Notes: generated by a model not told the origin, from the sequence alone. A stretch of 64,000 nucleotides of DNA from Gemmatimonadales bacterium (GCA_037189525.1 JBBCJC010000005.1:288001-352000); one strand, 5' to 3'; numbered from the stretch's first letter, positions 29,000-51,167 are shown. Program-made: numbers and translations.

Positions 29000-29027
29000 A
29001 TGCTATCACCTCACGTCTGTGGGAGAC

Positions 29028-29056
29028 TCAGACGGGGAGGGAATCTCCCCGCCTGA
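29028..29056 (-). terminator. Hairpin after fliC (attenuating terminator or stabiliser)
   Basis: Minus strand TCAGGCGGGGAG-ATTCC-CTCCCCGTCTGA; no strong U-tract. Confidence 0.55.
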
Positions 29057-29072
29057 ACCCCACCTGCCCTGA

Positions 29073-29995: not shown

Positions 29996-30023
29996 GTTTC
30001 GGCAGCCCCCCTCAAAAGCTTTA
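29996..30023 (-). promoter_or_regulatory. sigma28 promoter of fliC
   Basis: Minus strand TAAA-N16-GCCGAAAC; the -35 TAAA includes the TAA stop of the upstream TPR gene. Confidence 0.8.
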
Positions 30024-31862
30024 GCCCTGCCCCAACAGCCCGGACCGGATCTCGGTCATGACCCGGCCATGGTCCGCCTCGCCCGGGCGCAGCGCGGCGA
30101 CCTGAATCGACGGGAACCAGGGAGACCGGCTCCCCCCGAAGACGGTCCAGTCGCTGCCGCTGTCGACCTGCCAGGTCGGGCACCCCACCGCCCCGGCCAG
30201 CGAGCTGACCGCCGTCGGCGCCGTCACCACGGCATCGAGGTTGGCGAGCAATCCGACCACCGATTCGAGGTCGTTCCGGAGATCGACGTCGGCCCACCGG
30301 TGAATCCGGCGACCCCACTGGCTTTCGATCGCGGTCAGTTCGGCCTCGCAGTCGTCATACTGCAGATTGATCCAGGTAATTCCCGGCGTCTCGAGCAGCG
30401 ACCGGAAGGCCACCAGCGGCGCGTACTGCTTCTGGCGATCCGGCGTGACCAGACCGCTTCGCCAGCAGAGCCCGACCCGGCGCCCTTCGCCTAACGATGC
30501 CAGCCGCGCACGCCACTGCTCGACCTGGACCGGGTCCGGCGCGAGGAGCGCCTCGGCCGCCGGGAATGCTCCCCGGGTCCGGCGCACCCAGCGCGGCAGG
30601 CTCGCGAGACCGACCTGCCAATCGAACTCTCCTGCGGGCGGCGTCGTGAGATCGTCGGCCACCACGCGCACCTCGGGAAAAGCCCGGGTCACCAGCGAGA
30701 CCAGCCGCTCGCTGACGGCAACGGTAACCTGCGCACCTGCCTCGACCAGATCCGGCAGGCAGGTCAGGAAGAGGAGTTCATCGCCGATCCCCTGCTCCCG
30801 CCAGACGAAGATCCGCGCCCCCGCCAGCGGCTCGCCTTGCCACGAGGGCCACGACAGCGTCCGCGGTTCCGGCCGCGCCGCCTCAGTCCGATGGCGCCAC
30901 TCATATTCGTCCCAGCCCGCGCCGAGCGCGCCGGACGCCAACAGCGTGAACGACCGGTTCCAGCGCGCCTGGGCCAATTCTGGAGCCGCGGCAATGGCCC
31001 GATTGTGGGCCGTCAACCCTTCGGCCAACCGGCCCTGGTCGTGCAGCAGATTGCCTAACGTCGACCACGCCTCGGCGTAGCCAGGCTCGAGCGCCACCGC
31101 GCGTTCGAGATCCGCCTGCGCACCAGCCAGGTCGCCCAATTCGCGCCGCGCATTGGCCCGGTTGAGGTACGCTCCCGGGCGACCGGGAGCCAGTTCCACC
31201 GCCCGATCCGTGGCGACCAGCGCCTGCTGATACCGGCCCAGCGCCGTCAGCACCGTCCCCAGATTGGCCTGCGCCTCGAAGAGCTCGGGTTCGACCGAGA
31301 CCGCCTGGGTGTACGCGATGGCCGCCGCCTCGAACAGTTCCTGCGACTGCAGACCGACCCCCAGATAGAAGAGCGCCGCGGCATCGACCGGCGACTGCCC
31401 CAGATGAATCAGTAGCTGCGTTACCGCCTCCGACCAGCGCTGATCGGCCAGCGCGATCCGTCCCAGCGCTCGTGGTGCCCAGCGGGCCGGCAGATCGAGG
31501 CTGAGCAGCGATCGGGCCTGGTCGATCTCACCACTGTCGAGCACGATGTCGGCCAAGGCGGCTGCGGCTTCGGCGCGATCGGCATCGAGACGCAGCGCCT
31601 CTTCGAGAGCTTCCTGCGCATCACTGCGATGCACGGCGCCGAGCAGCGCCAGTCCCAGATCTTCGTGGTAGCGCGCCTCACCCGGCGCCCGCGCAGCCGC
31701 CTGCCCGATCAGGGCGAGTTCGAGATCGTGCTGTCCCAGCTGCCCCATCACACGACCGAGACCATGGAGCGCACTGGCATCATCCGGATTGCGACTCAGC
31801 GCGACGTGATACTCTTCGGCCAGCCGCGCCAGGGCCGGGTCGACCTGCTCTACGGTGCTCAC
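30021..31862 (-). CDS. TPR + GT-B glycosyltransferase, FlmG/FlbA-like (paralog 5)
   Basis: N-terminal TPRs; C-terminal GWDEYEWR...WQGEPLAGARIFVWREQGIGDELLF...VGLCWRSG...INLQYDDC...DLRNDLE...APTAVSSLAGA...SPW. Confidence 0.85.
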   Translation of the reverse strand: MSTVEQVDPALARLAEEYHVALSRNPDDASALHGLGRVMGQLGQHDLELALIGQAAARAPGEARYHEDLGLALLGAVHRSDAQEALEEALRLDADRAEAAAALADIVLDSGEIDQARSLLSLDLPARWAPRALGRIALADQRWSEAVTQLLIHLGQSPVDAAALFYLGVGLQSQELFEAAAIAYTQAVSVEPELFEAQANLGTVLTALGRYQQALVATDRAVELAPGRPGAYLNRANARRELGDLAGAQADLERAVALEPGYAEAWSTLGNLLHDQGRLAEGLTAHNRAIAAAPELAQARWNRSFTLLASGALGAGWDEYEWRHRTEAARPEPRTLSWPSWQGEPLAGARIFVWREQGIGDELLFLTCLPDLVEAGAQVTVAVSERLVSLVTRAFPEVRVVADDLTTPPAGEFDWQVGLASLPRWVRRTRGAFPAAEALLAPDPVQVEQWRARLASLGEGRRVGLCWRSGLVTPDRQKQYAPLVAFRSLLETPGITWINLQYDDCEAELTAIESQWGRRIHRWADVDLRNDLESVVGLLANLDAVVTAPTAVSSLAGAVGCPTWQVDSGSDWTVFGGSRSPWFPSIQVAALRPGEADHGRVMTEIRSGLLGQG

Positions 31863-32626
31863 GATTCTGTCCTTTCGACGACCGACGCCGCCACCCTGCG
31901 GCTCGGATCCCAGGTATGTCCTGCCTGATCACGCCGCATCTGTGATTCATCGGCTCGGCACCAGGCGACGATCTCCCGGTACGATCCGATCCGTTCTCCA
32001 AGCTCGAGGGCATCATAGACCCGCCGCACGAAGGCGAGGTCCTCCGCCGTATCCACCGTCCACCGCAAATCGCTCGCGTCCTCCGCGGCCCGAACGCTCC
32101 GCACCCGAAACGCATCGGGCGCCTCCAACCGCGCCGGAATGGTTACATGTTCCCGAGCCGCCGCCGAGGTGCCTAGACGATCCATCCGATCGAGCGCCTC
32201 GCGGGTAAAGACTTCCGTATCGAGCCCGCGCGGGTAGCTCCGCTCGAGCACGTTGGCCGCGTAGTCGAAAGGCCCGTCGAGCGCCGCGATCGTCTCATCG
32301 ATGACCGCCGGATCGAGCAACGGACAGTCCGCCGTCAATCGCACGATCCTCGTGGCCCGAGCCAACTCGGCCGTGGCCACGAAACGGCCCAGCACATCGG
32401 ACTCGGATCCGCGGAACGACGGCACCGCGTTGGCTTCACACCACCGGGCAATCGGATCGTCGGCCGGCCCGGTCGTGCACGCCACCCAGACCGCATCGAC
32501 CCGCTTCGCCGCCTGCGCACGCCGGACGACACGATCGAGCATCGGCTTGCCGGCCAGGTCCATCAATACCTTGCCCGGCAGTCGCGACGACGTCATCCGC
32601 GCCTGAACGATTGCGACCACGCTCAT
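31859..32626 (-). CDS. spsF: SpsF/PseF-type acylneuraminate cytidylyltransferase (second copy)
   Basis: AIVQARMTSSRLPGKVL, RGSESDVLGRF, VRLTADCPLLDP, YPRGLDTEVF, REHVT, RWTVDTAED. Confidence 0.88.
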   Translation of the reverse strand: MSVVAIVQARMTSSRLPGKVLMDLAGKPMLDRVVRRAQAAKRVDAVWVACTTGPADDPIARWCEANAVPSFRGSESDVLGRFVATAELARATRIVRLTADCPLLDPAVIDETIAALDGPFDYAANVLERSYPRGLDTEVFTREALDRMDRLGTSAAAREHVTIPARLEAPDAFRVRSVRAAEDASDLRWTVDTAEDLAFVRRVYDALELGERIGSYREIVAWCRADESQMRRDQAGHTWDPSRRVAASVVERTES

Positions 32627-33579
32627 GGCCGCTCCCAGGTTGCGACGTAGTAGGGAGTCGGAACCGCTCCGAAACTGGTCTTGAAGTCGCCGCGCGACGG
32701 GGAGTTGAGCCCGACGACGTCGAGCGCCGTCAAACCACGCGCCAGAGCACGCTCCGCACCGCTCAGGAAGAGCAGCGTCGACACTCCCGCCGACCGATAG
32801 TCCGGATCGTTGGCCGCGACGAGGTAATACGCCGAGGTCTGATCGAAGAGGAAGAGAACGGCGCCCGCGGCGATGCCATCGCCATCGAAGGCCACCAGCA
32901 GCTCACCGAACCCATGCTCCAGGGCGGCGGCGGTAATCGACCGGAGCAACCGTCCTTCTCGTTCGCTGCGCACGATTCCCTGCCGGTCGAAGGTCCGCCG
33001 ATGCAGGCCGTCGAGCAGATCGAGATCCTCCGACGGCTCGACCCGGAATCGTGTCGCGGCCTTTCGGTATTCCTGCCGTCGTACCGTACGCGCCCCGGCC
33101 AGCACACCATCGAGCCCGGCGGCCGGGTCGAGCGCGATGATACCGGTGTACCGGACCTCGATCCGGAACTGCCCCAGTTCGGGCTCGTGATAGTGGAACC
33201 AGCTGAGCGCTCGTATGTCCGTCAACGACGGATGGAGACACCACGAAAGGCGCGCTTCGCCCGAGAGCCCGTCGAGCAAGCTGCCCACCGAATCGAGCTC
33301 ACGCCGGACCTTGCGATGCGGCGCCTCGTCGGGACGATGCGGGAGGAAAATCCCCTGATAGAGACAGAACGGCACCGGCGCCCGCACCGCCGTCCCTGCA
33401 TCGCGCAGCACCAGTGCGGCGGCCTCCGGGCAGTCGACCGCTCCCCCAACCGATCGGACTTCCCAGCTGACGTCCAGGGCATCGAGCAGTTCAGCCCGGC
33501 TGAAGACCGAGCCCTGCGGTGAGGCCGAGACGTAGCGGTTCCAGGCCGTCCGGTCGGCGGATACGAGCGTGGTGGTCAT
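32623..33579 (-). CDS. GNAT/FemAB-like acyltransferase
   Basis: WNRYVSASPQGSVF...AYYLVAAND...GLNSPSRGDFKTSFGA; ATG 33579 overlaps the upstream stop (ATGA). Confidence 0.75.
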   Translation of the reverse strand: MTTTLVSADRTAWNRYVSASPQGSVFSRAELLDALDVSWEVRSVGGAVDCPEAAALVLRDAGTAVRAPVPFCLYQGIFLPHRPDEAPHRKVRRELDSVGSLLDGLSGEARLSWCLHPSLTDIRALSWFHYHEPELGQFRIEVRYTGIIALDPAAGLDGVLAGARTVRRQEYRKAATRFRVEPSEDLDLLDGLHRRTFDRQGIVRSEREGRLLRSITAAALEHGFGELLVAFDGDGIAAGAVLFLFDQTSAYYLVAANDPDYRSAGVSTLLFLSGAERALARGLTALDVVGLNSPSRGDFKTSFGAVPTPYYVATWERP

Positions 33580-34169
33580 CGGTAGACGAACACGGCGACG
33601 TCGCACCGCTCATAATGATGTTCGATCCGGACTCGACGCGACAACCGGCGCACACAGAAATCGAAGACTCGCGCCGGATCGTGGTACGCCATCGTCGCAT
33701 CGGTGAAGTTGTGATGCGACGACAGAAAGTTGAATCCGAGCCCACGCTCCGCATGGTCCCAGGACCGTTCGATCAGCGCTTCGAGGAACGAAGTCGGGTC
33801 CGGAATGGCATTGTTGAAAATCGCCGACAGCAGCACATAGTCGAACCGCCCCACCCGGGCGCCACTCAGCAAATCCGCGACCTGGAACTGCGCCTCGGGA
33901 TACTTGGCTGCGGCGCACTCGACCATATCAGGTACGACATCGACCCCGGTATAGCGAGTCCGCGGATACCGCGCGCGTAGGTATGGATATAGGTCAGCCA
34001 GGCCACAACCGACATCGAGGACGTCGGCGCCGTCGAGATCCGCAATCTCCAGCAGCTTGAGAAAGCGGAACCGCTGGCCCTCGGCGCTCATCTGCGTGGC
34101 GAGCGGCGCATCACCATGCTCGCGGAACAAGGCGCCGTAGTGGGCGCTCAGATCGGCAACGGAACTCAT
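33576..34169 (-). CDS. Class I SAM-dependent methyltransferase
   Basis: VLDVGCGLADLY...YTGVDVVPDMV. Confidence 0.88.
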   Translation of the reverse strand: MSSVADLSAHYGALFREHGDAPLATQMSAEGQRFRFLKLLEIADLDGADVLDVGCGLADLYPYLRARYPRTRYTGVDVVPDMVECAAAKYPEAQFQVADLLSGARVGRFDYVLLSAIFNNAIPDPTSFLEALIERSWDHAERGLGFNFLSSHHNFTDATMAYHDPARVFDFCVRRLSRRVRIEHHYERCDVAVFVYR

Positions 34170-35440
34170 ACGGCCTCGAGCACCCCGGCATGGCGCAGCA
34201 CCTTCTCGAATGCCTGGACGACGTCATCGAGATCGGCCCGGCTCACCCCGGCGTGGCACACGGTGAGATAGAGCAGTTCCTGCTCGTGCATCCGCTCCGC
34301 CACCGGGCAAAGTCCGTCGGGATACCGCACCGGCGCCCTGCCCTGCTGGCGGAATGGGAACCCGTCGCGGCCAAGCGCAATACCCTGTCGATACATCGGC
34401 TGGCGATAGAGCGGTTCGACGTAGCCCACATGGATCGGCACGCCCTCGGCGCGCACCGCCTCGGCAAAGCGGCCGCGGCTGAGGCCGGTGGCCTGCGCAT
34501 CGTACTTGATGGCATAGACGTAGTAGCCGTGGCGGACACCCTCGCGGACCGCCGGAGGAGTCAGGCCGGTCATCCCTCTGACTTGTGCCGTCAGATAGTC
34601 GGCGGCGTCGATCCGAGGCTGCACCAGTCCCTCGAGCTTGCGCAGCTGTTCAAGCGCAATGGCCGCTTCGATTTCCGTCATCCGATAGTTGAACCCGACC
34701 ATGTTGACCAGATCGTCGTGCCCTTTGGCCTTGACGACGGCCTCGCCATGGTTGCGAATCAACTGGAGCCGTTCGGCCAGGCGTGAATCGTCGGTGACGA
34801 CGATGCCCCCCTCGCCGCTGTGGATCGTCTTGTGATAGTTGAGGCTGAACACGCCCATGTCGGCCAATGTGCCTGCCCAGCGATTGCCCATCCGGGCGCC
34901 CGGCGCCTGCGCCGTATCTTCGATCAGGACGATATCCCGGCCCGCCGTAACCGCACGCAGTTCATCCCACGCCGCGGGGTGACCGAAGATGTCGACCCCG
35001 ATGATCGCACGAGTCCGGTCGGTCAGCAAACGGCGGACTGATTCGGGATCGAGACAGAAGGTGTCCGGATCGATGTCTGCAAAGACCGGCACCGCGCCGT
35101 AGACGATTGCGGCCGCAGCCGAAGCACTCATGGTATAGGGCGACACGATCACTTCGTCGCCTGGCCCCACGCCAGCCGCGCCGACTGCCGCGTAGAGCCC
35201 GGAGGTGGCCGAGTTGACCGAGACCGCGTAGGCCACCTCGAAATGGCGCGCCCAGGCCGATTCGAGCGCCTGCACTCGCGGCCCTCCGAAAAAATCGGGA
35301 CCCCAGACCCCGACGAACTGCGACAGCACCCCGCTGTCGAGCACCTCGAGCACCGCACGGCGTTCCTCGGCCCCAATGGTGTTGTAGATCGGAAAAGGGG
35401 CCGTCCGAACCGGAGTGCCGCCTTGAATGGCCAATTTCAT
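34166..35440 (-). CDS. DegT/DnrJ/EryC1/StrS PLP-dependent sugar aminotransferase (second copy)
   Basis: VNSATSGL, GPGDEVIV, IEDTAQA, FSLNYHKTIHSGEGG, GFNYRMTE. Confidence 0.92.
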   Translation of the reverse strand: MKLAIQGGTPVRTAPFPIYNTIGAEERRAVLEVLDSGVLSQFVGVWGPDFFGGPRVQALESAWARHFEVAYAVSVNSATSGLYAAVGAAGVGPGDEVIVSPYTMSASAAAAIVYGAVPVFADIDPDTFCLDPESVRRLLTDRTRAIIGVDIFGHPAAWDELRAVTAGRDIVLIEDTAQAPGARMGNRWAGTLADMGVFSLNYHKTIHSGEGGIVVTDDSRLAERLQLIRNHGEAVVKAKGHDDLVNMVGFNYRMTEIEAAIALEQLRKLEGLVQPRIDAADYLTAQVRGMTGLTPPAVREGVRHGYYVYAIKYDAQATGLSRGRFAEAVRAEGVPIHVGYVEPLYRQPMYRQGIALGRDGFPFRQQGRAPVRYPDGLCPVAERMHEQELLYLTVCHAGVSRADLDDVVQAFEKVLRHAGVLEAV

Positions 35441-36540
35441 GAAGTCACCTCGGAAAAATCACGAGCTCCCATTTCAACGACGAGGTCGAGCAGGCGCATC
35501 GTGGCGCCCGTGGCATGCAGGCGCAGCCGCTGCACCTCGCGCGCCGACCCCAGATGCGCCGGGCGTGCCAGCACCCGGTACAACGCCGAGCCGACCCCTG
35601 CCGCATCGATCACACCTTCACTCAGGCCCATGCGGTTGCTCGGCAGATGGTCCACGCCGATCAATCCCGGCTGGACGCTCACCACGCGGAGTCCCAGCAA
35701 CGCAGCCTGAAGCAACAGGGCACTGCTCATCCCGACGACCAGATCGGCCGCGAGTATCCAGGACAGCGGGTCGCCCTCATCGGCGCGACGCACCGCGACT
35801 TTGGCGGTGCCTTCCGGCAGCCACGCTCCCCCGTCCTGCCGCGGATGACTCCGCACCGCCAGCGTAATTCCGTGGCCCAGCCAGTCCGCCACGTTCTCGA
35901 CGCCGTCGCGCACCAGAGAAACGACCTGGTCTTCGTCGTACCCGATCCGGCTGCCGTACAGCGCGCGGATCGGCTGCGAAGCAAACAGGACCAGCGTCGC
36001 CTTACGCGATACGCCGACCCGTTCCCGAAAGGCCAGGCGCGCATCGCGATCGAACCCTTGCCCCTGCCTGAGGAGTACCTCGTAGTGAGGATTGCCCGTC
36101 GCCACGACCCGCTCGGCAGGCAGCCCCTCGGCCACGGCTTCCGCCGCGGCGACATCGTCGGGAACCGCAATCCGGTCCGGCAGGACGAGCCGGCCGTCGC
36201 TGCCCAGAAAGCGCGCCGCGTAGTTCGACCAGAAATCCACGACGGACAGCACCGGAATGCCCTCCCGCGTCGCGGCCCCGATATAGTCGAGTTCCGGCGG
36301 CTGCTCGGCCCAGGAGGTTCCTGTCAGCAGCACCGTCGGACTGGTCAGCTCGAGGAGCGCATTCGGCGTCCGCTCGACCAGCGGGCGATGCGGGATTCCC
36401 TCTCGGCGCAGAACCTGCTGGGCCGGGCCCGCGGCCCAGACGCCGGCGAGGGTCTTCCGCTGTTCGAGCAGCTTGAGCACCGGCACGACGGCTTCCGCGC
36501 CGCCGGCATCGCCGAGGACGCTAGCGACCGACAACTGCAT
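35437..36540 (-). CDS. Putative GT-B-fold transferase (CDP-glycerol glycerophosphotransferase / sialyltransferase-like)
   Basis: DAGGA, VDFWSNYAARF, LPDRIAV, TGNP, RSHPR and GMSSALLL motifs; inside the nonulosonate operon. Confidence 0.55.
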   Translation of the reverse strand: MQLSVASVLGDAGGAEAVVPVLKLLEQRKTLAGVWAAGPAQQVLRREGIPHRPLVERTPNALLELTSPTVLLTGTSWAEQPPELDYIGAATREGIPVLSVVDFWSNYAARFLGSDGRLVLPDRIAVPDDVAAAEAVAEGLPAERVVATGNPHYEVLLRQGQGFDRDARLAFRERVGVSRKATLVLFASQPIRALYGSRIGYDEDQVVSLVRDGVENVADWLGHGITLAVRSHPRQDGGAWLPEGTAKVAVRRADEGDPLSWILAADLVVGMSSALLLQAALLGLRVVSVQPGLIGVDHLPSNRMGLSEGVIDAAGVGSALYRVLARPAHLGSAREVQRLRLHATGATMRLLDLVVEMGARDFSEVTS

Positions 36541-37513
36541 GGCGCCCCTCCTCTGCCTCTGCACTTGCCAATGCCTCGGAAGCCAACCGCAGGGCAGCGA
36601 CGGCATCGGTGCCCGTCCCTGCCGGAGCGCGCCCGGTCGTCAGAGCCGCCAACAGATCGCGAACGGCGTGGCCAAGGAGATCAGTCAGATCGCCGGCTGG
36701 GCATCCGATCGGCGCCAGTTCGGCAAAGCCGGGGAACGAGCGGCTGGGCACTGCCGTCCACGCCTCGAAACGGCGCCCCGATTCTGTCAAACGCACCCGG
36801 CCGTTCGAACCAATCAGATCGATTTCGAAGAGCGAGTAGCTGACATCGCGCACCCCACGTAGCGATCCGATCGCACCCGATGCAAACCGAAGCTCTGCAT
36901 CGATGGTGGCGTCGGACGCCTCCGGCTCGACGGCGCCATGACCCCGGATCTCCGTGATCTCACCCGCCAGCCAGCGCGCCAGATCCAGCCAATGCGTACC
37001 GTTGTGCTTGATCCCGCGAACGTAGACCCCATCCACCCGCTGAATCGCTCCGATCGGAGCGGACTCGAGCCACGCAGCCAGCGCGCGATGGCTCGGGGTA
37101 TACCGCCGGCTATAATTGACCGCCAGGACAATGCCGCGCTCCTCCGCCATGCGGACCAGAGACTCGGCCCGGTCCACGTCCACCGCCAGCGGCTTCTCGG
37201 CCAGCACGGCACGGACGGAGGATCCGGCAAGCACCTGTTCGAGCAGATCCGCGTGGGTCGCATCCGGAGACGCCACGCTCACGACCTCGGGCCGGACCGC
37301 CTCGAGCATCGAGGCGACATCCGAATAGAGGGCGTCGACACCCCACCGCGCGCCGGCCGACGCCAGCCGCGCGGCGTCGGGTTCGACCAGCGCGGCAAGC
37401 GTGACACCATCCGCTTCGCGCCAGGCGGCGGCATGCGACTGCGCCCCGGCGCCCGGAACACTCGCTCCGGCACCGATGAACCCGCAGCCGATCACCGCCG
37501 CGCGCATGGTCAC
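36521..37513 (-). CDS. Gfo/Idh/MocA NAD(P)-dependent oxidoreductase
   Basis: AAVIGCGFIG, VASPDATH, EKPL, VNYSRRY, HNGTHWLDL. Confidence 0.92.
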   Translation of the reverse strand: MTMRAAVIGCGFIGAGASVPGAGAQSHAAAWREADGVTLAALVEPDAARLASAGARWGVDALYSDVASMLEAVRPEVVSVASPDATHADLLEQVLAGSSVRAVLAEKPLAVDVDRAESLVRMAEERGIVLAVNYSRRYTPSHRALAAWLESAPIGAIQRVDGVYVRGIKHNGTHWLDLARWLAGEITEIRGHGAVEPEASDATIDAELRFASGAIGSLRGVRDVSYSLFEIDLIGSNGRVRLTESGRRFEAWTAVPSRSFPGFAELAPIGCPAGDLTDLLGHAVRDLLAALTTGRAPAGTGTDAVAALRLASEALASAEAEEGRHAVVGR

Positions 37514-42528: not shown

Positions 42529-43508
42529 CAGTCGAGTCCGAGCGAACCGAGCAGGTCGCGAACTTCCGTGACACCGAGCCGCTCGGGATTGGTGTCGCTC
42601 CGGTATGAGAATCCTTCCGGCACCACGGTCCCCGCGCTGGTCACCGCATCGTCCCACCACGACTGCTGTGGCTGGAGCACATAGTGCGACCCCATGTCGA
42701 CGGTACGCCGCGCATCGTCTTCGCTGATCATCAGCTCGTGCAGCTTCTCACCGGGCCGGATCCCGATCACCTCGGTCCGGCATTGGGGCGCCAGCGCCTC
42801 GACCAGCGTCATGATGTCGGTCGACGGAATCTTGGGCACGAAGAGCTCGCCGCCATGCATCCGCCGGAGCGAATCGAGCACGAAAGCGACGCCCTGCTCG
42901 AGCGTGATCCAGAACCGCGTCATCCGCGGATCGGTAATCGGCAGGACACCATTGCGCCGCGCCTTGAGGAAGAAGGGGACGACCGAGCCGCGGCTGCCGA
43001 CGACGTTGCCATATCGGACCACGCTCATCAGCGGTCCGCGGCCCGCAGCGTAGGCATTGGCCGCCACGAACAGTTTGTCGGAGCAAAGCTTGGTGGCGCC
43101 GTAGAGATTGGCGGGATTGGCAGCCTTGTCGGTCGAGAGCGCAATCACCTTTTCGACCCCGGTGTTGAGCGCCGCCTCGATCACATTCTGGCCGCCCAGC
43201 ACGTTGGTCTTGATGCACTCGAACGGATTGTATTCCGCGGCAGGCACCTGTTTGAGCGCGGCGGCGTGTACCACCACCTGCACACCTGACATGGCGCGCT
43301 GTAGCCGCGACAGATCCCGAACATCGCCCAGGAAGAACCGGATCCGGCGGTCGCGGATCTGCTCCGCCATCTCATACTGTTTCAGCTCGTCACGGCTGTA
43401 GACGATGACCCGGCGCGGTTCATAACGCTCGAGTACCGTCTTGACGAAGGCGCGCCCGAACGAACCGGTACCGCCGGTGATGAGGATCGATTGACCTTCG
43501 AGAAACAT
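42528..43508 (-). CDS. pseB: UDP-N-acetylglucosamine 4,6-dehydratase (inverting)
   Basis: TGGTGSFG, SRDELKQ, AAALKQVPAAEYNP, STDKA, YGATK, RYGNVVGSRGSVVP, MTRFWITL. Confidence 0.96.
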   Translation of the reverse strand: MFLEGQSILITGGTGSFGRAFVKTVLERYEPRRVIVYSRDELKQYEMAEQIRDRRIRFFLGDVRDLSRLQRAMSGVQVVVHAAALKQVPAAEYNPFECIKTNVLGGQNVIEAALNTGVEKVIALSTDKAANPANLYGATKLCSDKLFVAANAYAAGRGPLMSVVRYGNVVGSRGSVVPFFLKARRNGVLPITDPRMTRFWITLEQGVAFVLDSLRRMHGGELFVPKIPSTDIMTLVEALAPQCRTEVIGIRPGEKLHELMISEDDARRTVDMGSHYVLQPQQSWWDDAVTSAGTVVPEGFSYRSDTNPERLGVTEVRDLLGSLGLD

Positions 43509-43511
43509 TGC

Positions 43512-45023
43512 TTATGCCCTTCCGGTATCCGAAGCCGCGACCTCGCGGCTTCTGCGGATGATCAGTTCCTGCTCGATCCGGCGACACACCGGACCCCAGT
43601 CGTTGGTTCCATACTCGCGCGTGAAAGCACGGATCGCCGGCAGCCACGGCGATCGCTCCTCGCCAAACAGCGTCCAGTCGGTGCCCGCATCCAGCTGCCA
43701 CGTCTCGGTCCCGATGGCGCCCGCCAGCGAGCTCACGGCGGTAGGCGCCGTGATGACGAGATCGAGATGCCAGGCGAGCGCTGCCACACTTTCCAGATCC
43801 TGCTTGAGATCCACCCCGGCCCAGCGATGAATCCGAATTCCGAGCCGCGCTTCGGCCTCTTCCAGCTCCGTACGACAGTCGTCGTACTGGAGGTTGACGA
43901 ACTCGACGCCGGGCACCCGGAGCACCGGAGCCAGATCGAGCAAGGTCGGGTAATAGCGACGCCGTTCCCCACCATTGAGGCCGCTGCGCCAGCAGAGGCC
44001 CACGCGGAGCGGACCGTTCAGTGCGCGCAGCCGCTCGGTCCAGTTCGCAATCTCTGCGGGAGCAGGAACGAGATGACTCCAGCGTGGACGGAAGGCCGTG
44101 CGAGAAGTGCGAAGACGCCCGGGCAGGTCACCAAGCGGTGCCTGGAACTCGAACGCCTTCGCTCCCCACTCGCCATGGGCCACGACCTCCACAGCCGGGA
44201 ACGACCGGGCGTAGAGGCTGACCAACCGTCGATCGACCGCGAGCGTCACCAACGCTCCCGCATCGATCAAATCCGGGACACAGGTGGCAAACAGGATTTC
44301 ATCGCCCACCCCCTGCTCACCCCACACCAGTATCCGCTTTCCTTCGAGCGACTCCCCCTGCCAATGCGTCCAGGGCAACGCGGACGGTCCGGGAAGCCCG
44401 GCCCGCGCCCATCGGTGCGCATATCCGGACCAACCGTCCGCCAGACACCCATCCGCCAGGTTCACGAGGCCGAGATTCCACTGCGCTTCGGCCCAGTCGG
44501 ACTTGAACTGGATGGCGCGCTCGAGCGATGCCCGTGCTTCCGTCAAACGGCCCAGCTCGCGTTGAACGTTGCCCAGGTTGAGCCAGACATCGGCCGCTTG
44601 CGGAGCTGCCTCTGCGGCTTCGGCAAACGCCTCCGCCGCGGCCACCAACTGCCCCTGTTTACGAAGTACGTTGCCGATGTTGAAGAGCCCGGTAGCCCGC
44701 CACGTCCCGCCCAACTCCACTGCCTGACGATACGCGACCATCGCCAGTTCGAGCTCGCCCAGCCCTTCGCGCGATACGCCAAGATGGAGCCAGGCATCGG
44801 CCGCCGAGGGGCGGAGATGCGCTGCAGCCTCGAATGCCCGCGCCGCCCCGGCCAGGTCCTTCGCCGCGCGCAGCAAGTGACCAAGGTTGAAATGGGCCGC
44901 GGCATGCCGCGGATCCGAAGCGATGGTCCGGCGGTACGCGGCAATGGCTCCCTGAGCATCGCCCGATTTCTGCGCGGCCAAGCCGCGGTCGAAGTCGGTC
45001 AGCGCGGGTGCGGCGGCAATCAT
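43512..45023 (-). CDS. TPR + GT-B glycosyltransferase, FlmG/FlbA-like (paralog 4)
   Basis: TPRs plus WQGESLEGKRILVWGEQGVGDEILF...NLQYDDC...DLKQDLE...APTAVSSLAGA; ATG 45023 (ATGA overlap). Confidence 0.85.
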   Translation of the reverse strand: MIAAAPALTDFDRGLAAQKSGDAQGAIAAYRRTIASDPRHAAAHFNLGHLLRAAKDLAGAARAFEAAAHLRPSAADAWLHLGVSREGLGELELAMVAYRQAVELGGTWRATGLFNIGNVLRKQGQLVAAAEAFAEAAEAAPQAADVWLNLGNVQRELGRLTEARASLERAIQFKSDWAEAQWNLGLVNLADGCLADGWSGYAHRWARAGLPGPSALPWTHWQGESLEGKRILVWGEQGVGDEILFATCVPDLIDAGALVTLAVDRRLVSLYARSFPAVEVVAHGEWGAKAFEFQAPLGDLPGRLRTSRTAFRPRWSHLVPAPAEIANWTERLRALNGPLRVGLCWRSGLNGGERRRYYPTLLDLAPVLRVPGVEFVNLQYDDCRTELEEAEARLGIRIHRWAGVDLKQDLESVAALAWHLDLVITAPTAVSSLAGAIGTETWQLDAGTDWTLFGEERSPWLPAIRAFTREYGTNDWGPVCRRIEQELIIRRSREVAASDTGRA

Positions 45024-46948
45024 GGCAAACGCTCCAATCCGGTGCGCACCCATCGCTCGACCTGCCTGGCCACTCCGTTCAGCACCGGCTGCCAATCCTG
45101 ACCAGGCCCTTTGCGCGCCAATCCAATCGACGGCCACCACGGCGAACGATCCCGGCCGAAGACGGTCCAGTCGTTGCCGCCGTCGGTCTGCCAGGTGCGA
45201 ACACCACTGGCTCCCGCGAGCGACGACACCGCGGTCGGCGCCGTAATCACGGCATCGAGCGACGCGAGCAACCCGACGACACTCTCGAGATCCTGCTTGA
45301 GATCTTCACCCGCCCAGCGGTGCACCCGCACCCCGTGAATGCGCTCGATCTCGGCCAGTTCCACGTCGCAGTCGTCATACTGCAGATTGATCCAGGTCAC
45401 ACCGGGTACGCGCCACACCGGCGCCCACGCGGCGAGCGGAGCGTAGTGCCGCTGCCGTTCGGCCGTGAGCAACCCGCTACGCCAGCAGACACCGATCTTC
45501 GGACCTGCCGGGAGCGCTGCCAGCCGCTCCGCCCAGCGGTCGGCCAGATCGGGCCGCGCACGGAGATACGCGCCGCTCCCTGCGAATGCCGCATGGGTGC
45601 GCCGCCAGAATCGAGGCAGGCTTCCCATCGGCAGATGGAAATCGAACGGTCCCGCCGCAGTGATCAGCACACCGCCATCCGGGAGGACCCGCACCGTAGG
45701 AAAGGCGCGTTCGACCATGGAGACCAGACGGGGCGACACCGCCACCGTCACCTGCGCACCTGACTGCAGCACATCGTCCAGGCAGGTCAGGAACATCAGT
45801 TCGTCGCCCAAACCCTGCTCACGCCAGATCAGGATCCGCTTGCCGTTCAGGTCCTCGCCCTGATACGCCGGCCACGGATAGGTCCGATACTCTGCCGGCC
45901 GGCTGGTTGCCCGCCAGCGCCACTCGTACTCGTCCCACCCGGCCGGAATGTCACCGTGCCCGATCAGGGCAAGGGATCGGTTCCACCGGGTATCGGCTCG
46001 GTCGGGACTCCGGGCCATTGCCTGATCGTGCAGCTCGACCGCCAGCGCGAAGTCCCCACGCTCCGCCGCCAGACTCCCCATGGCGGTCAGCGGTTCGGGA
46101 CCATCGGACAGCGCGGCGGCTTGCATGAAGTACTGCAGCGCTTCGTCGAGTCGCCCGGCCGCCTGCAGCGCCGTGCCACCGTTGAGCCAGCCGTCGGCCT
46201 GCCGGGGTGCAACCGTGACGGCGCGCCCCTGCAGCGCAATCGCGTCCTCCACCCGATCGAGCTTGAGGCAGAGCACCCCCAGGTTCGTGAGGACATCGGC
46301 GTCGTTCGGCGCGGTCGCCAGAGCGCGCTGGTAGGCCAGCACGGCTTCATCGTTCCGTCCCGCCAGCTGGGCAAGCACGCCGAGGTTCTTGTGGGCAATC
46401 GACAGCTCGGGCGCGATTCCGGCGGCGGTGCGATACCGAGCGGCCGCCTCATCTAGCCGGCCGGCGGCGCGCAGCGCGTTACCCAGGTTGAGCTGAGCCA
46501 GCGGCGACCGCGGGTCCTTGATCACCGCAGTCTCCAGCACGTCGACCGCCTCGGCAATGTCCCCGCGGTCGAGCCGCACCAGACCCAGGTTGATCCAGGC
46601 GTCGGTATATCCGGGTTCGAGCCGGGTAGCGGTCGTGAGTTCACGCAGGGCGCTCTCGAGGTCGCCGAGACCGCGCAACACGTGCCCATAGTTCGAGCGA
46701 TACTCCGCCACTTTGGGACGCAGGGCCACGAGACGCTCGAAGTGCGACGCCGCCTCCGTCAGATGCCCATCGGCCAGCAGCAGCAACCCCAGCAGGTGAT
46801 GCGCATCGGCATTGGACGGCTCGGCCGCGAGCACCTGGCTGTAGCACGAGGCCGCCGCTTCGTGGCGGCCGGCACGATGATGCGCCAGGCCGTCGTGCAA
46901 CTGCTGACGAACGGCGCCAGCGCGCTGGGTGCGAACGGCGCCGCTCAT
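45020..46948 (-). CDS. TPR + GT-B glycosyltransferase, FlmG/FlbA-like (paralog 3)
   Basis: TPRs plus YQGEDLNGKRILIWREQGLGDELMF...NLQYDDC...; ATG 46948 (ATGA overlap). Confidence 0.85.
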   Translation of the reverse strand: MSGAVRTQRAGAVRQQLHDGLAHHRAGRHEAAASCYSQVLAAEPSNADAHHLLGLLLLADGHLTEAASHFERLVALRPKVAEYRSNYGHVLRGLGDLESALRELTTATRLEPGYTDAWINLGLVRLDRGDIAEAVDVLETAVIKDPRSPLAQLNLGNALRAAGRLDEAAARYRTAAGIAPELSIAHKNLGVLAQLAGRNDEAVLAYQRALATAPNDADVLTNLGVLCLKLDRVEDAIALQGRAVTVAPRQADGWLNGGTALQAAGRLDEALQYFMQAAALSDGPEPLTAMGSLAAERGDFALAVELHDQAMARSPDRADTRWNRSLALIGHGDIPAGWDEYEWRWRATSRPAEYRTYPWPAYQGEDLNGKRILIWREQGLGDELMFLTCLDDVLQSGAQVTVAVSPRLVSMVERAFPTVRVLPDGGVLITAAGPFDFHLPMGSLPRFWRRTHAAFAGSGAYLRARPDLADRWAERLAALPAGPKIGVCWRSGLLTAERQRHYAPLAAWAPVWRVPGVTWINLQYDDCDVELAEIERIHGVRVHRWAGEDLKQDLESVVGLLASLDAVITAPTAVSSLAGASGVRTWQTDGGNDWTVFGRDRSPWWPSIGLARKGPGQDWQPVLNGVARQVERWVRTGLERLP

Positions 46949-48348
46949 ACGATACCGTCCTCGACCCGGCGCGCATCGAGTTCCATGGCGGCGCGCCGGA
47001 GTACCGGCGCCCAGTCGGCGGATCCGAAGGTTCGGCGAATCAGGCGGATGCTCGGGAACCACGGCGATCGGTCCTCACCGTGCGCCGTCCAGTCGAGCCC
47101 GTTGTCGATCTGCCAGGTCGAAACCCCCGCCGCGCCGGCCAGCGAACTCACGGCGGTCGGTGCGGTGACCACGGCGTCCAGATTCCAGATCAGCCCGAGC
47201 GCGCTCTCGAGATCGTTCTTGAGATCCTCCTCGTCCCAGCGATGGATCGTGATCCCGTGCTGCGCTTCCGCAGTCGTCAGCTCCGCCAGGCAGTCATCGT
47301 ACTGGAGATTGATCCAGTGAATGCCCGGCGTCGTCAGAACAGGGCCCCACTCTTCCAAACGGCTGTAGGTGCGCGACCGCTCTTCCGTCATCATGCCGCT
47401 CCGCCAGCAGATCCCGACCTTGAGGCCGGGACCCAGCGCATCGAGCCGGGTCGTCCACCGGGTGGCATGCGCCGAATCCGGGGTCAGAAACTTGGTCTGC
47501 AACGGAAAGGCGTCGCGATTCTTTCGCAGGTACCGCGGCAACGTGCCGAGCGGAACGTGGAAATCGTACTCGGCGTCACCCCACGCGCCATCGTCGATGA
47601 CCGTCACGCCGGGAAAGGCGCGCGTCAGCATGCCGACCAGGCGCGGTGAGACGGCCAGCGTGACCTCCGCGCCGGCGGCAACCAGATCTCGGAGGCAGGT
47701 GGCAAAGAGGAGTTCGTCGCCCAGTCCCTGCTCCCGCCAGACCAGGATCCGTTTGGCGGCCACCGGCTCGCCCGCCCAGAGCGGCCAGGAAAACCGGGTA
47801 GCGGGGTCGACGCCAAGTTGGGTCCAGCGATGCTCGTACTGGGCCCATCCCGCCTGGAAGCTCCCGCCGGCCAACAGGGCCGTGGCCAAATTCCACTGCG
47901 CGCCGGTGTATTCCGGCTCCTGTTCGAGGACGGCGCGGTAGCTCTCCGCCGCTTCCGAAAACTCGCCTAACGCCAGCAGCGCGTTGGCCAGGTTGTAGCG
48001 GGGCCGCACATCGTCGCTCACGCACTCGACCGCCTGGCGGTACATCACCACGGCTTCCTGATGCCGTTCGAGGCGCTCCAGCATGGCGCCCAGATTGAGC
48101 CACGCGTCGCCCGCTGTCGGACGGAGCCGGACCGCGGCCTCGAAGCAGGTCACCGCCCCTTCGTAGTCCCGTTCCTCCCGAAGCAACTGGCCCAGATTGA
48201 AATGTGCCGGCGCCAGACCCGGATTGATCCGGATCGCCTTCCGGTACGCGGCCACCGCGCGAACCCGGTCACCCGCCTGCTGCGCTGCGATGCCGCGACG
48301 CAACACGTCGATTCCGGGTACCAGCGTCGCTCCTTGTACTCCGATCAT
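46945..48348 (-). CDS. TPR + GT-B glycosyltransferase, FlmG/FlbA-like (paralog 2)
   Basis: TPRs plus WAGEPVAAKRILVWREQGLGDELLF...NLQYDDC...; ATG 48348 (ATGA overlap). Confidence 0.85.
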   Translation of the reverse strand: MIGVQGATLVPGIDVLRRGIAAQQAGDRVRAVAAYRKAIRINPGLAPAHFNLGQLLREERDYEGAVTCFEAAVRLRPTAGDAWLNLGAMLERLERHQEAVVMYRQAVECVSDDVRPRYNLANALLALGEFSEAAESYRAVLEQEPEYTGAQWNLATALLAGGSFQAGWAQYEHRWTQLGVDPATRFSWPLWAGEPVAAKRILVWREQGLGDELLFATCLRDLVAAGAEVTLAVSPRLVGMLTRAFPGVTVIDDGAWGDAEYDFHVPLGTLPRYLRKNRDAFPLQTKFLTPDSAHATRWTTRLDALGPGLKVGICWRSGMMTEERSRTYSRLEEWGPVLTTPGIHWINLQYDDCLAELTTAEAQHGITIHRWDEEDLKNDLESALGLIWNLDAVVTAPTAVSSLAGAAGVSTWQIDNGLDWTAHGEDRSPWFPSIRLIRRTFGSADWAPVLRRAAMELDARRVEDGIV

Positions 48349-50711
48349 CGGCCGTTCTCCCGCCCCATCGAAATCCATTCACCCAGCCGACCCGCCAAGC
48401 GCTGAACGGCCGACTCCCATGTCGTTTCCCCCGGTCGCTTCCGCTCGAGCCGAATGCTCGGCCACCAGGGCGACCGATCCGCCCCGAAGACGGTCCAGTC
48501 GCTCCCGCTGTCGAGCTGCCAGGTCGGAATGCCCGTCGCTCCGGCCAGCGAGCTCACCGCGGTCGGTGCGCTCACCACCGCATCGAGCTGGCTCATCAGG
48601 CCGACGACGCTCTCCAGGTCGTTCTTCAAGTCCTCACCGTCCCAGCGATGGACCCGGACGCCCGTCGCCGCCTCGATGGCAGACAACTCGGCCTCACAGT
48701 CGTCATATTGCAGGTTGACCCAGGTCACCCCAGGCACCCGCCAGAGCGCGCCCCATTCGTCGGCAGGCGCGTAATACCGGCGGCGTTCCGGCGTCACCAG
48801 CCCGCTCCGCCAGCAGATGCCCACCTTGCGGTCGTCGCCCAGCGTGTCCAGCCGCGCCCGCCACCGGGCCGCCTCGGATGCCGTCGGCGCGAGAAACACA
48901 CCGGAACTCCGGAACGTTTCCCGGCTCCGACGCCACCAGCGCGGCAGGCTCCCCATCGGTAGCTGCCCATCGAAGTGTTCGAGTTCGCCCAGCACCCCAG
49001 GCCCATCCGCCAGCACCTCTGCTTCGGGAAAGGCCCGGCCGACCAGCGACACCAGCCGAGGACTGACCACGAGCGTGACGGTAGCGCCAGCGGTAATCAG
49101 GTCGGGTACGCAGGTCAGGAAGAGCAGTTCGTCGCCCAATCCCTGCTCCCGCCACACCAGGAGACGCCGCCCCGCCACCTCCGCACCGCCCTGCCAAACC
49201 GGCACCTTGGGCAGCTCGGGCACCTGCGGGGTATCGCCGTTCCGCCAACGCCATTCGTAACCGTCCCAACCACGGGCCAGTTCGCCCTTGCCCAGCTGCG
49301 CCAGCGCCAGATTCCAGTTGGCCTCGCCGTACTGCGGACGAATCCGCAACGCCTGGTAGTAACCGGTAATGGCTTCGTCGTAGCGGCCCACCTCACGCCA
49401 CGCATTGCCGATGTTGTACGCAGCTTCCGCATAGTCGTGACGGAGCTGCAGCGCTTCGTGATAACTGACGACCGCGCGCGCCGTGTCGCCGCGGGCTTTG
49501 AGCGCGTTCCCCAGACCCAGGCGCGCATCGGCCTGTCCGGGATCGAGCGCGACCGCGCCTTCGAGGGTGACTACGGCAGCATCGACCTCACCGGCCGCCA
49601 GCAGCACGTTGCCGAGATTGGTGGCGATCCGTACCGATTCGGGAGCCAGTTGCACGGCGCGCCGGAGGTCGACGACGGCAGCGTCGAACTGACCGAGATG
49701 CCGGTACACGCCACCCCGCGTCGACAGCAGGTCCGCATGATCGGGCGCCTGGCGGAGCCCTTCGGTCAGCGCAGCGAGTGCCTGATCGAGCGCGCCCTGC
49801 GCCTGACAGATCACGCCCAGATGGAGATAGGCTTGCGCCGCGGCGGGACGCGCCACGCAGGCCGTCTCGAACGCTTCGCGGGCTTCGTCGAGCCGCCCCA
49901 GCGCCTGCAGCGCAATGCCTAGATTGATGACGGCTTCGTAGTGGGCGGGCTCGAGCACCAATCCCTGGCGATAGACCTCGACCGCGCCCGCGAGATCGCC
50001 CGCGGCCGACAGCGCAGTCCCCAGGTTCGAATAGGCCTCGACCAGCGTGGGTTTGAGCTCGATGGCCCGGCGATAGGACGCGACCGCCTCATCCAGGCGA
50101 TCGGTGGCCTGCAGCAGCGAGCCCAGATCGGAGTGGGCTTCGGCAAAATCGGGCTTCAATTCGAGCGAGGTTCGGAGCGCGCGCTCCGCATCGCTCATCC
50201 GGCCCAGCGCATGGAGAGCGGCGCCCCGGGTCGCGTGGGCCTCCGCAAAGCCGGGATCCAACGCCAGCGCACGATCGTACCCCCGGACCGCGCCGCGCGG
50301 ATCGCCGAGCAGCCGGCGGACGGTGCCCAGATGGAGGTGCGCATGCGGCGAAGCCGGACGGAGGACGACGGCACGCTCGAAGGCCGCCCGCGCGCGATCG
50401 ACCTGCCCGGTCGCCTGCAACGCCAGACCGAGATTGATGACGAAATCGGGCGCCTTGGGATCGAGCGCCACCGCCTGCTCGAGCAGCGAAACGGCCACCG
50501 CGTGCTTTCCCGCCTGATGGGCCAATACCCCACTCAGATGGAGCGCATCGGGCTGGCGCGGATCCAGGGACAGCACGGCCTGATAGCAGGCCAGCGCACG
50601 GCTCAACTCGCCCCGTTGATGGAAGGCGAGCCCCTGGCGCAGTACCTGTCGCAGATCCTGGGTCGAACCCGGCAGATCCAGCTCGACCCCTGGCAGTACA
50701 TCAGTGTCCAT
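48345..50711 (-). CDS. TPR + GT-B glycosyltransferase, FlmG/FlbA-like (paralog 1, longest TPR array)
   Basis: More than 10 TPR-like repeats plus RRLLVWREQGLGDELLF...NLQYDDC...; ATG 50711 preferred (in-frame TTG at 50744 possible). Confidence 0.85.
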   Translation of the reverse strand: MDTDVLPGVELDLPGSTQDLRQVLRQGLAFHQRGELSRALACYQAVLSLDPRQPDALHLSGVLAHQAGKHAVAVSLLEQAVALDPKAPDFVINLGLALQATGQVDRARAAFERAVVLRPASPHAHLHLGTVRRLLGDPRGAVRGYDRALALDPGFAEAHATRGAALHALGRMSDAERALRTSLELKPDFAEAHSDLGSLLQATDRLDEAVASYRRAIELKPTLVEAYSNLGTALSAAGDLAGAVEVYRQGLVLEPAHYEAVINLGIALQALGRLDEAREAFETACVARPAAAQAYLHLGVICQAQGALDQALAALTEGLRQAPDHADLLSTRGGVYRHLGQFDAAVVDLRRAVQLAPESVRIATNLGNVLLAAGEVDAAVVTLEGAVALDPGQADARLGLGNALKARGDTARAVVSYHEALQLRHDYAEAAYNIGNAWREVGRYDEAITGYYQALRIRPQYGEANWNLALAQLGKGELARGWDGYEWRWRNGDTPQVPELPKVPVWQGGAEVAGRRLLVWREQGLGDELLFLTCVPDLITAGATVTLVVSPRLVSLVGRAFPEAEVLADGPGVLGELEHFDGQLPMGSLPRWWRRSRETFRSSGVFLAPTASEAARWRARLDTLGDDRKVGICWRSGLVTPERRRYYAPADEWGALWRVPGVTWVNLQYDDCEAELSAIEAATGVRVHRWDGEDLKNDLESVVGLMSQLDAVVSAPTAVSSLAGATGIPTWQLDSGSDWTVFGADRSPWWPSIRLERKRPGETTWESAVQRLAGRLGEWISMGRENGR

Positions 50712-51104: not shown

Positions 51105-51167
51105 CATCCGGAGTCGGGGAAATCGGTTATGGAACCGGCTCCCGTCTGGCGAGGAGAAGAGGATCGA

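What the first reader, a model, noticed from the sequence alone, without database searches (positions are those of the whole stretch)
30021..50711. Flagellin-glycosylation operon with five paralogous FlmG-like TPR-glycosyltransferases
Seen: five genes (788, 467, 642, 503 and 613 aa) share one C-terminal domain (EQGxGDE, CWRSG, NLQYDDC, DL[KR]xDLE, APTAVSSLAGA, SPW) but carry very different numbers of N-terminal TPRs. Four lead the operon and one closes it, bracketing the nonulosonate genes and ending at the fliC promoter. Established: Caulobacter FlmG (FlbA) is a TPR + GT-B enzyme whose TPR domain binds flagellin and whose GT domain adds pseudaminic acid, and one FlmG serves several flagellins. 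Inference: the ratio is inverted here, five transferases for one visible 271-aa flagellin. This suggests division of labour by site, by acceptor (hook, FlgL or non-flagellar proteins), by sugar donor, or stepwise glycan extension. A multi-enzyme O-nonulosonylation system like this is not one I recognise as characterised, and it is the best candidate for a new system in this window.
Basis: partly seen in the sequence, partly recalled or inferred. Interest (0 to 1): 0.85.

Follow-up and report, generated by a model that had tools for sequence, protein, structure and literature searches.

The report
Five sugar-adding enzymes for one flagellin

Summary
Observation confirmed. Five TPR + GT-B genes (catalytic domains 49-57% identical) lie in one 18-gene pseudaminic-acid operon ending at the genome's only flagellin; the host is a Gemmatimonadales. 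The domain has a GT9-like GT-B fold and is 34-36% identical to a Caulobacter-type FlmG proxy. All five keep the predicted catalytic Asp, are under purifying selection (dN/dS 0.02-0.13), and recur in 11 of 13 near-complete genus relatives; the other two lack flagellin and PseI. TPR regions are position-specific (55 of 55 copies), one genome carries a GT1-type catalytic domain on the GT3 TPR, and another keeps all five without the second sugar-tailoring block: this favours division by site or acceptor over donor. Not unique: Azospirillum has 4-5 fused modules behind its polar flagellin, multi-module fusions are common, and Shewanella Maf-1/Maf-2 already split sites on flagellin. This scan earlier noted an FlmG homologue outside Caulobacterales on other DNA (e1-2365018). 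Binding and activity are untested. New variant of a known kind.

The parts
48345..50711 (-). GT1: 788 aa, 476-residue TPR array + FlmG-type GT-B domain; predicted catalytic D527; first gene of the operon
46945..48348 (-). GT2: 467 aa, shortest TPR array (160 residues); most conserved copy; predicted catalytic D211
45020..46948 (-). GT3: 642 aa, 331-residue TPR array; catalytic domain closest to GT1's; predicted catalytic D382
43512..45023 (-). GT4: 503 aa, 190-residue TPR array; predicted catalytic D241
42528..43508 (-). pseB, UDP-GlcNAc 4,6-dehydratase (inverting)
   Evidence: TIGR03589 over cut-off
41362..42531 (-). pseC aminotransferase
   Evidence: TIGR03588 over cut-off
40433..41365 (-). 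pseG-like UDP-sugar hydrolase
   Evidence: TIGR03590 E 2e-12, below cut-off
39982..40446 (-). pseH-like GNAT acetyltransferase
   Evidence: TIGR03585 below cut-off; PF13302
38918..39985 (-). pseI, the genome's only strong nonulosonate synthase match
   Evidence: TIGR03586 over cut-off
38175..38921 (-). cytidylyltransferase 1 (PF02348)
37510..38178 (-). Pse-associated methylase
   Evidence: TIGR03587 over cut-off
36521..37513 (-). Gfo/Idh/MocA oxidoreductase (second tailoring block)
35437..36537 (-). 366-aa protein with no Pfam or NCBIfam family; nearest Atlas clusters carry Glyphos_transf (23% of members) or A-2,8-polyST (13%): a possible sixth GT-B-like enzyme (lead only)
34166..35440 (-). 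second DegT/DnrJ aminotransferase
33576..34169 (-). second SAM methyltransferase
32623..33579 (-). GNAT (Acetyltransf_6) acyltransferase
31859..32626 (-). cytidylyltransferase 2 (PF02348)
30021..31862 (-). GT5: 613 aa, 310-residue TPR array; closes the operon; predicted catalytic D361; domain modelled as GT-B
29996..30025 (-). sigma-28-like promoter for fliC whose -35 box overlaps the GT5 stop codon (inferred; consensus recalled)
   Evidence: sequence; similar site 87-152 nt upstream of fliC in 18 of 18 genus loci; pattern chosen after seeing the window, no shuffle control
29073..29888 (-). fliC, the only flagellin; alphaproteobacterial type; 21% Ser+Thr; presumed acceptor
27639..28404 (-). 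flbT (28009-28404) and flaF (27639-28025), alphaproteobacterial-type flagellin regulators
26619..27524 (+). flgL, hook-filament junction protein (alternative acceptor candidate)
   Evidence: TIGR02550 over cut-off

Best explanation
The five genes encode FlmG-class TPR + GT-B proteins that likely all transfer a pseudaminic-acid-type sugar from its CMP donor onto Ser/Thr residues of the single flagellin, each TPR array predicted to grip flagellin differently so that each enzyme would serve its own subset of sites. Shown: gene anatomy, one operon with the Pse pathway, one flagellin, GT-B fold (on a predicted model), homology to an FlmG proxy, retention and purifying selection of all five, position-specific TPR arrays. 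Inferred from the Caulobacter/Brevundimonas work: TPR selects the acceptor, GT domain selects the donor, transfer happens in the cytoplasm before export. Inferred from comparison: GT1 and GT3 share a donor; the five arose by duplication inside this genus after an FlmG-type module and an alphaproteobacterial-type fliC-flbT-flaF set were acquired. GT2 and GT4, whose catalytic domains form separate clean clades, may additionally prefer a tailored Pse derivative.
For: Operon of 18 coupled genes between the Pse pathway and fliC. One flagellin, no Maf-family gene found in the genome. GT-B fold, best Z 18.1 (rmsd 3.4, 258 aligned) to a GT9 enzyme, then WaaF, WaaC and the protein O-heptosyltransferase TibC (one search agrees). 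FlmG proxy L091 is 34-36% identical on average to the five groups versus 28% to more distant TPR-GT9-like proteins, and shares 20 of 23 residues invariant in 72 genus copies. The Asp of EQGxGD is kept in 71 of 72 genus copies; it lies after the first strand where WaaC has catalytic D13 (range offset; D13). dN/dS 0.02-0.13 in 20 of 20 TPR and GT comparisons. 11 of 13 genus relatives at least 90% complete have 5-6 matches; the other two (G013, G016) lack fliC and pseI too. N-terminal regions best match their own position in 55 of 55 copies. G006 GT3 has a GT1-type catalytic domain (71% to its own GT1 versus 56-60% in 10 other genomes; AU rejects one GT3 clade, p 0.012 on codon positions 1+2) under a GT3-type TPR; published chimeras show the GT domain sets the donor. 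G017 keeps pieces of all five while its island lacks six tailoring genes. FliC has 22 Ser/Thr positions in residues 95-205 kept in at least 90% of 31 close flagellins. Azospirillum places 4-5 such modules, fused into two proteins, directly behind fliC-flbT. Precedent for site splitting: Shewanella Maf-1 and Maf-2.
Against: No binding or activity data exist for any of the five. One FlmG is enough for several Thr sites and six flagellins in Caulobacter, so five enzymes are not required by site number alone. The hook protein FlgE is as Ser/Thr-rich as FliC (20% versus 21%). Azospirillum also has modules away from flagellin genes (beside a chemotaxis cluster; three modules in L173 with no flagellin match), and G001 and G015 have extra copies outside the flagellar region. 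The domain swap rests on one genome: the protein-level AU test did not reject a GT3 clade (p 0.093), and without G006 the codon 1+2 test does not reject it (p 0.23). G017 is in 260 contigs and GT1/GT3 were seen only in part. G001 lacks GT5 beside fliC and its GT2 has lost the motif Asp, so the set is not rigid. The characterised FlmG itself was not obtained; grouping with the proxy has only 87-92 SH-aLRT support on a long branch.
Confidence: 0.5

Rival explanations
1. Division by acceptor protein: one or two copies (GT5 first) would modify FliC, the others the hook FlgE, the junction proteins FlgK/FlgL or non-flagellar cytoplasmic proteins.
For: Five distinct TPR types kept by position; FlgE 20% Ser+Thr; related modules occur away from flagellin genes in Azospirillum, G001 and G015.
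Against: In G016 the island is gone together with fliC while flgL, flaF and flbT remain (one event, possibly an assembly gap). Fusion of 2-5 modules into one chain in many relatives fits a shared target better. Characterised FlmGs act on flagellins.
Confidence: 0.2
2. Division by donor: two cytidylyltransferases, an oxidoreductase, a second aminotransferase, two methylases and an acyltransferase would make two or more CMP-sugars, each with its own transferase, as recalled for Campylobacter Maf paralogs.
For: Two PF02348 genes and a second tailoring block in the operon, kept in 18 of 22 genus genomes by its marker gene. GT2 and GT4 catalytic domains form separate, strongly supported clades. The GT domain sets the donor in FlmG.
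Against: Only one nonulosonate synthase. G017 lacks the block yet keeps five copies. GT1 and GT3 catalytic domains are exchangeable in G006. Only three columns separate the five groups among well-conserved positions.
Confidence: 0.15
3. The five act as one hetero-oligomeric or relay machine on flagellin (like the TibC dodecamer, where two protomers serve one substrate), or extend a glycan stepwise.
For: Translational coupling of GT1-GT4; natural fusions of 2-5 modules; fold likeness to TibC.
Against: GT5 is 11 kb from the other four and is absent from its slot in G001. All five keep a full TPR array, which a glycan-extending enzyme would not need; the 366-aa GT-B-like gene is a better extension candidate (lead only).
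Confidence: 0.1
4. Redundant copies kept for dosage or by chance.
For: Copy loss, decay and extra copies occur (G001, G015).
Against: Position-specific TPR sequence and length across genomes whose orthologues are only about 50-65% identical, and dN/dS below 0.14 for every copy.
Confidence: 0.05

Closest known systems
FlmG (FlbA, CCNA_01524) of Caulobacter crescentus and FlmG of Brevundimonas subvibrioides
   Same: N-terminal TPR + C-terminal GT-B; homologous catalytic domain (34-36% to a 596-aa proxy); linked to a nonulosonate pathway and to flagellin, flbT and flaF.
   Different: One FlmG serves up to six flagellins; here five paralogs face one flagellin, TPR arrays range from about 4 to 14 repeats, and the host is a Gemmatimonadales, whereas the class was described as confined to Caulobacterales.
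Azospirillum TPR-GT module arrays behind the polar flagellin (uncharacterised; A. brasilense Sp7 p1, A. lipoferum 4B p1, A. ramasamyi)
   Same: Closest named relatives (41-42% identity); pseI, cytidylyltransferase, flagellin and flbT nearby; 4-5 modules per locus.
   Different: Modules are fused 3+2 or 2+2 into two large proteins, form their own clade (independent expansion), and the flagellin is about 620 aa.
Shewanella oneidensis Maf-1 / Maf-2(+GlfM); Campylobacter maf paralogs
   Same: Several flagellin nonulosonyl-transferases flank the Pse genes and, in Shewanella, prefer different serines; up to seven maf genes in Campylobacter.
   Different: Maf enzymes are GT-A (MAF_flag10), unrelated to these GT-B proteins; no Maf found in this genome.
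GT9 heptosyltransferases WaaC/WaaF and the protein O-heptosyltransferase TibC
   Same: Best fold matches (Z 15.6-18.1); Asp after the first strand.
   Different: 11-18% identity; no TPR; ADP-heptose donor; PF01075 not matched above cut-off.

Membership tests
FlmG-class flagellin glycosyltransferases | N-terminal TPR array | tested here: met
   Pfam TPR families over cut-off in all five
FlmG-class flagellin glycosyltransferases | C-terminal GT-B domain | tested here: met
   GT5 domain model (pLDDT 76, pTM 0.79) matches GT-B/GT9 structures; the other four by 49-57% identity
FlmG-class flagellin glycosyltransferases | Sequence homology to FlmG over the catalytic domain | tested here: met
   Against proxy L091:2054-3844, not the characterised protein: 38%, E 9e-63 to GT4; 34%, E 3e-65 to GT5; 20 of 23 invariant residues shared
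FlmG-class flagellin glycosyltransferases | One clade with FlmG apart from the wider TPR-GT9-like family | tested here: inconclusive
   Grouped with SH-aLRT 92 (quick tree), proxy on a long branch, only 7 distant rows sampled from a family of over 13,000 clusters
FlmG-class flagellin glycosyltransferases | CMP-Pse or CMP-Leg pathway in the same cell | tested here: met
   PseB, PseC, PseI over cut-off; two cytidylyltransferases in the same operon
FlmG-class flagellin glycosyltransferases | TPR domain binds flagellin | not testable with these tools
   Needs two-hybrid or pull-down assay
FlmG-class flagellin glycosyltransferases | Transfers Pse/Leg to Ser/Thr of flagellin | not testable with these tools
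   Needs co-expression and glycopeptide mass spectrometry
Maf-class flagellin glycosyltransferases | MAF_flag10 (PF01973) GT-A domain | tested here: not met
   No PF01973 match in the five proteins or the genome; fold is GT-B
GT9 LPS heptosyltransferases (WaaC/WaaF) | PF01075 above cut-off | tested here: not met
   Best E 0.11, one of five domains
GT9 LPS heptosyltransferases (WaaC/WaaF) | GT-B fold of the GT9 type with Asp after strand 1 | tested here: met
   Z 15.6-18.1; Asp position inferred from range offset, no residue-level alignment was printed
BAHT/TibC autotransporter heptosyltransferases | Iron-finger dodecamer architecture and ADP-heptose donor | not tested
   Only the catalytic fold was compared (Z 15.6; paper passages)

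The most novel reading that the evidence does not exclude
Multi-module FlmG arrays, as five separate genes here and as 2-5-module fusion proteins in Azospirillum and many unnamed lineages, are a site-addressing code for protein O-nonulosonylation: each TPR array is a ruler that directs a near-identical catalytic domain to its own Ser/Thr (candidates in this FliC: S107, T145, T163, S169, T177, conserved in the genus and rare in related flagellins), some with a differently tailored pseudaminic acid.
Probability: 0.3. Interest if true: 0.75.

Novelty: new variant of a known kind. Interest (0 to 1): 0.52.

Why it matters
How a cytoplasmic O-glycosyltransferase picks which Ser/Thr to modify is open for the FlmG class. 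Five natural paralogs with one donor pathway, one small acceptor, fixed TPR types and a natural catalytic-domain swap make that question directly testable in the existing Caulobacter or E. coli Pse-producing hosts, and could give site-selective sialylation-like tools. It also extends FlmG-type enzymes, described as confined to Caulobacterales, to Gemmatimonadota and points to the unstudied Azospirillum modules as candidates for modifying its heavily glycosylated polar flagellin.

Tried and rejected
Complex prediction of the GT3 TPR region with FliC gave no verdict. Two exact-primer scans for C. crescentus flmG found a chance hit in Arthrobacter and nothing; a degenerate scan gave 33 loci of which 1 was an FlmG orthologue. 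Sequence searches of the PDB found nothing real (integrase rows at E 0.04 or worse are chance). Pfam and NCBIfam have no family for the catalytic domain. The careful 95-row tree did not finish; the quick tree is reported. Two AU tests on FlmG placement did not finish. A sigma-54-like site upstream of GT1 was found in 1 of 10 genomes and was dropped. The sigma-70 scan found nothing. Recurrent GT1/GT3 gene conversion, suggested by the all-position DNA tree, did not survive on codon positions 1+2 once G006 was removed; only the G006 event is kept. The paper search for an 8-amino-nonulosonate pathway gave nothing usable. Names for the multi-module fusion proteins could not be obtained, so their taxa are unknown. 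Rejected: hidden extra flagellins, pseudogenes, a recent tandem duplication, inheritance of the five from the Azospirillum five (separate clades).
Full report
Observation. Their C-terminal domains are 49-57% identical to each other, and tblastn of the 4.65 Mb genome (98% complete) finds these five and no others. The N-terminal regions are TPR arrays of 476, 160, 331, 190 and 310 residues. I call them GT1-GT4 at the head and GT5 at the end. All 17 junctions from GT1 to GT5 overlap or are within 3 nt, so the 18 genes read as one operon; fliC starts 132 nt later. Between GT4 and GT5 lie pseB, pseC, pseI and the Pse methylase (over NCBIfam cut-offs), pseG- and pseH-like genes (below cut-off), two cytidylyltransferases, and a second block with an oxidoreductase, an unassigned 366-aa protein, a second aminotransferase, a methyltransferase and a GNAT. 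The genome has one flagellin, flgL, one strong nonulosonate synthase match, and no FliD or Maf match. Source names of the closest proteins say Gemmatimonadales. The flagellin matches alphaproteobacterial models best and is followed by flbT and flaF, unlike the canonical flagellins of other Gemmatimonadales; its next relatives with names are mostly from Candidatus Eisenbacteria at 54-58%.

What the domain is. Pfam and NCBIfam give no family; the Atlas points to GT9-tagged clusters (11-26% of members). A model of the GT5 domain (pLDDT 76) matches GT-B enzymes of the GT9 type: 3tov Z 18.1 (rmsd 3.4, 258 aligned), WaaF 17.0, WaaC 15.6, TibC 15.6, well above other GT-B rows (Foldseek agrees). The characterised Caulobacter FlmG could not be fetched. 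A metagenome locus, L091, serves as proxy: a 596-aa TPR protein (the published length of FlmG), divergent from flbT and a flagellin, followed by a GNAT, with peptides that agree closely with four published flmG primers. It is 34-36% identical on average to the five groups and 28% to more distant TPR-GT9-like proteins, and shares 20 of the 23 residues invariant in 72 genus copies (pairwise E 3e-65). The Asp of EQGxGD sits after the first strand; by the aligned ranges (model 39 to chain 1) it falls at WaaC residue 13, the proposed catalytic base; this is inferred, not a printed residue alignment. It is kept in all five here and in 71 of 72 genus copies; the exception is G001 GT2. The wider family is huge: 13,398 clusters at E 1e-30 or better.

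Conservation. In the genus, 19 of 21 relatives have matches; of the 13 at least 90% complete, 11 have 5-6 and two have none. Those two also lack this flagellin and pseI: G013 has no Flagellin_N match at all, and in G016 flbT abuts a 124-residue stub of GT1, as if fliC and the island were deleted together (not checked against reads). G010 (73% complete) has three matches and no flagellin found. Six relatives with the whole island on one contig show the same 18-gene order. In a sample of 301 genomes of the phylum, only the five genus members have this high-scoring type; 23 others have 1-2 distant copies (142 bits or less), several beside a canonical flagellin. dN/dS against two close relatives is 0.02-0.13 for all five genes in both TPR and GT regions (20 of 20 values), and 0.14-0.22 for eight GT-domain comparisons among other relatives. 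Each genome has one flagellin of this type (19 of 22; G008's second match is a contig-end fragment).

How the labour is split. Published chimeras show that in FlmG the TPR selects the acceptor and the GT domain the donor. Here N-terminal regions best match the G000 copy of their own position in 55 of 55 cases. Catalytic domains sort less cleanly: the genus copies form one clade (SH-aLRT 97-98), GT2 and GT4 are clean groups, GT5 is compatible with one group, and GT1/GT3 mix. In G006 the GT3 catalytic domain is 71% identical to its own GT1, against 56-60% in ten other genomes, while its TPR is GT3-type. AU tests reject a single GT3 clade on DNA (p 1e-7 all positions; p 0.012 on positions 1+2) but not on protein (p 0.093), and not on positions 1+2 without G006 (p 0.23). 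So one swap is supported; repeated swapping is not. G017 (96% complete, 260 contigs) runs pseI, methylase, cytidylyltransferase 2, GT5, fliC without the six-gene block, and those genes were not found elsewhere with two queries, yet GT4, GT5 and GT2 are whole and GT1 and GT3 are present in part at contig ends. Both natural experiments argue that copy number does not track donor number. FliC offers many sites: 22 Ser/Thr positions in residues 95-205 are kept in at least 90% of 31 close flagellins, and five of them (107, 145, 163, 169, 177) are Ser/Thr in 26% or fewer of 89 more distant ones (threshold chosen after seeing the data, so a lead only). Against: FlgE is as Ser/Thr-rich; one FlmG handles several threonines in Caulobacter; G001 has no GT5 beside fliC, a decayed GT2 motif and a separate three-copy cluster, and G015 a sixth copy elsewhere.

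Not unique. The closest named relatives are on Azospirillum plasmids (42-45% identity, up to 12 places per record; the FlmG proxy finds the same genes first). A. brasilense Sp7 and A. lipoferum 4B have five modules, fused 3+2, directly behind fliC-flbT, A. ramasamyi four; single modules sit by the fliS/fliD cluster, whose minor flagellin is reported as likely glycosylated, and others lie by a chemotaxis cluster or away from any flagellin match. These form a separate clade, so the expansion happened at least twice. Among 147 new top hits of the representative search, 143 have two or more full domains and 93 have two or more of the high-scoring type, up to five; the ranking favours multi-domain proteins, so this shows existence, not frequency.

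Literature seen. PMC7591256: passages and primer rows of one supplement. 10.1101/2022.03.25.485807: passages. 10.1101/2023.12.03.569772: abstract, section 7 in full, passages; it shows Maf-1 and Maf-2 prefer different serines and calls FlmG confined to Caulobacterales. PMC3958885, PMC4358343, PMC5713226, PMC12826043, 10.1101/2020.07.27.223248: passages. Supplements of the bioRxiv preprints were not seen and may bear on FlmG distribution. Seven searches listed no paper on multi-copy FlmG systems or on Pse flagellin glycosylation in Gemmatimonadota; most subscription papers are outside this library. Donor-specific roles of Campylobacter Maf paralogs and the sigma-28 consensus are recalled, from no call.

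Verdict. A real, conserved, selected feature; most likely five FlmG-class transferases dividing the sites of one flagellin (0.5), with acceptor (0.2), donor (0.15), complex or extension (0.1) and redundancy (0.05) as rivals. The principle is known from the Maf class; its occurrence in the FlmG class and in this phylum was not found in print. New variant of a known kind, interest 0.52.

Noticed in passing
window 51129-51509 (+): ORF divergent from GT1 that reads like the anti-sigma factor FlgM (my recollection of the family; no Pfam hit); a similar ORF is in G016 (L116:12036-12419). If so the island is bracketed by flgM and fliC.
   Followed up: partly
window 27639-29888: An alphaproteobacterial-type fliC-flbT-flaF set with no fliD found sits inside a Gemmatimonadales flagellar cluster that also has fliA; other Gemmatimonadales have canonical flagellins. 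Suggests replacement of the filament module in this genus; related flagellins occur in Candidatus Eisenbacteria.
   Followed up: partly
window 28412-28999 (-): 195-aa ORF between fliC and flbT with no family, conserved in place across the genus at 37-78% identity.
   Followed up: no
window 31859-38921: Second tailoring block (oxidoreductase + aminotransferase + methyltransferase + GNAT + two cytidylyltransferases) could add a further amino group to Pse; product unknown. Marker gene in 18 of 22 genus genomes.
   Followed up: partly
L116:10592-11829 (G016:C24): flbT directly abuts a 124-residue stub of GT1: fliC and the whole glycosylation island appear deleted while flgL, flaF and flbT remain.
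   Followed up: partly
L037:8209-16299 (G001:C271): Second cluster with GT1-like, Pse methylase, GT5-like and GT2-like genes beside a WbuX-type amidotransferase and an EmrAB-TolC efflux set, away from the flagellar genes.
   Followed up: partly
L073:14835-25131; L172:13795-24832; L070:18513-27223: Azospirillum proteins of 1100-2000 aa made of 2-3 tandem TPR-GT modules right behind the polar flagellin and flbT, annotated only as TPR proteins; candidates for its flagellin modification.
   Followed up: partly
L108, L109, L110, L111 (G027, G033, G041, G057): Other Gemmatimonadales carry one distant TPR-GT9-like gene beside their canonical flagellin, outside the FlmG-like group; in G041 it is fused to a further GT4-type domain.
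   Followed up: partly
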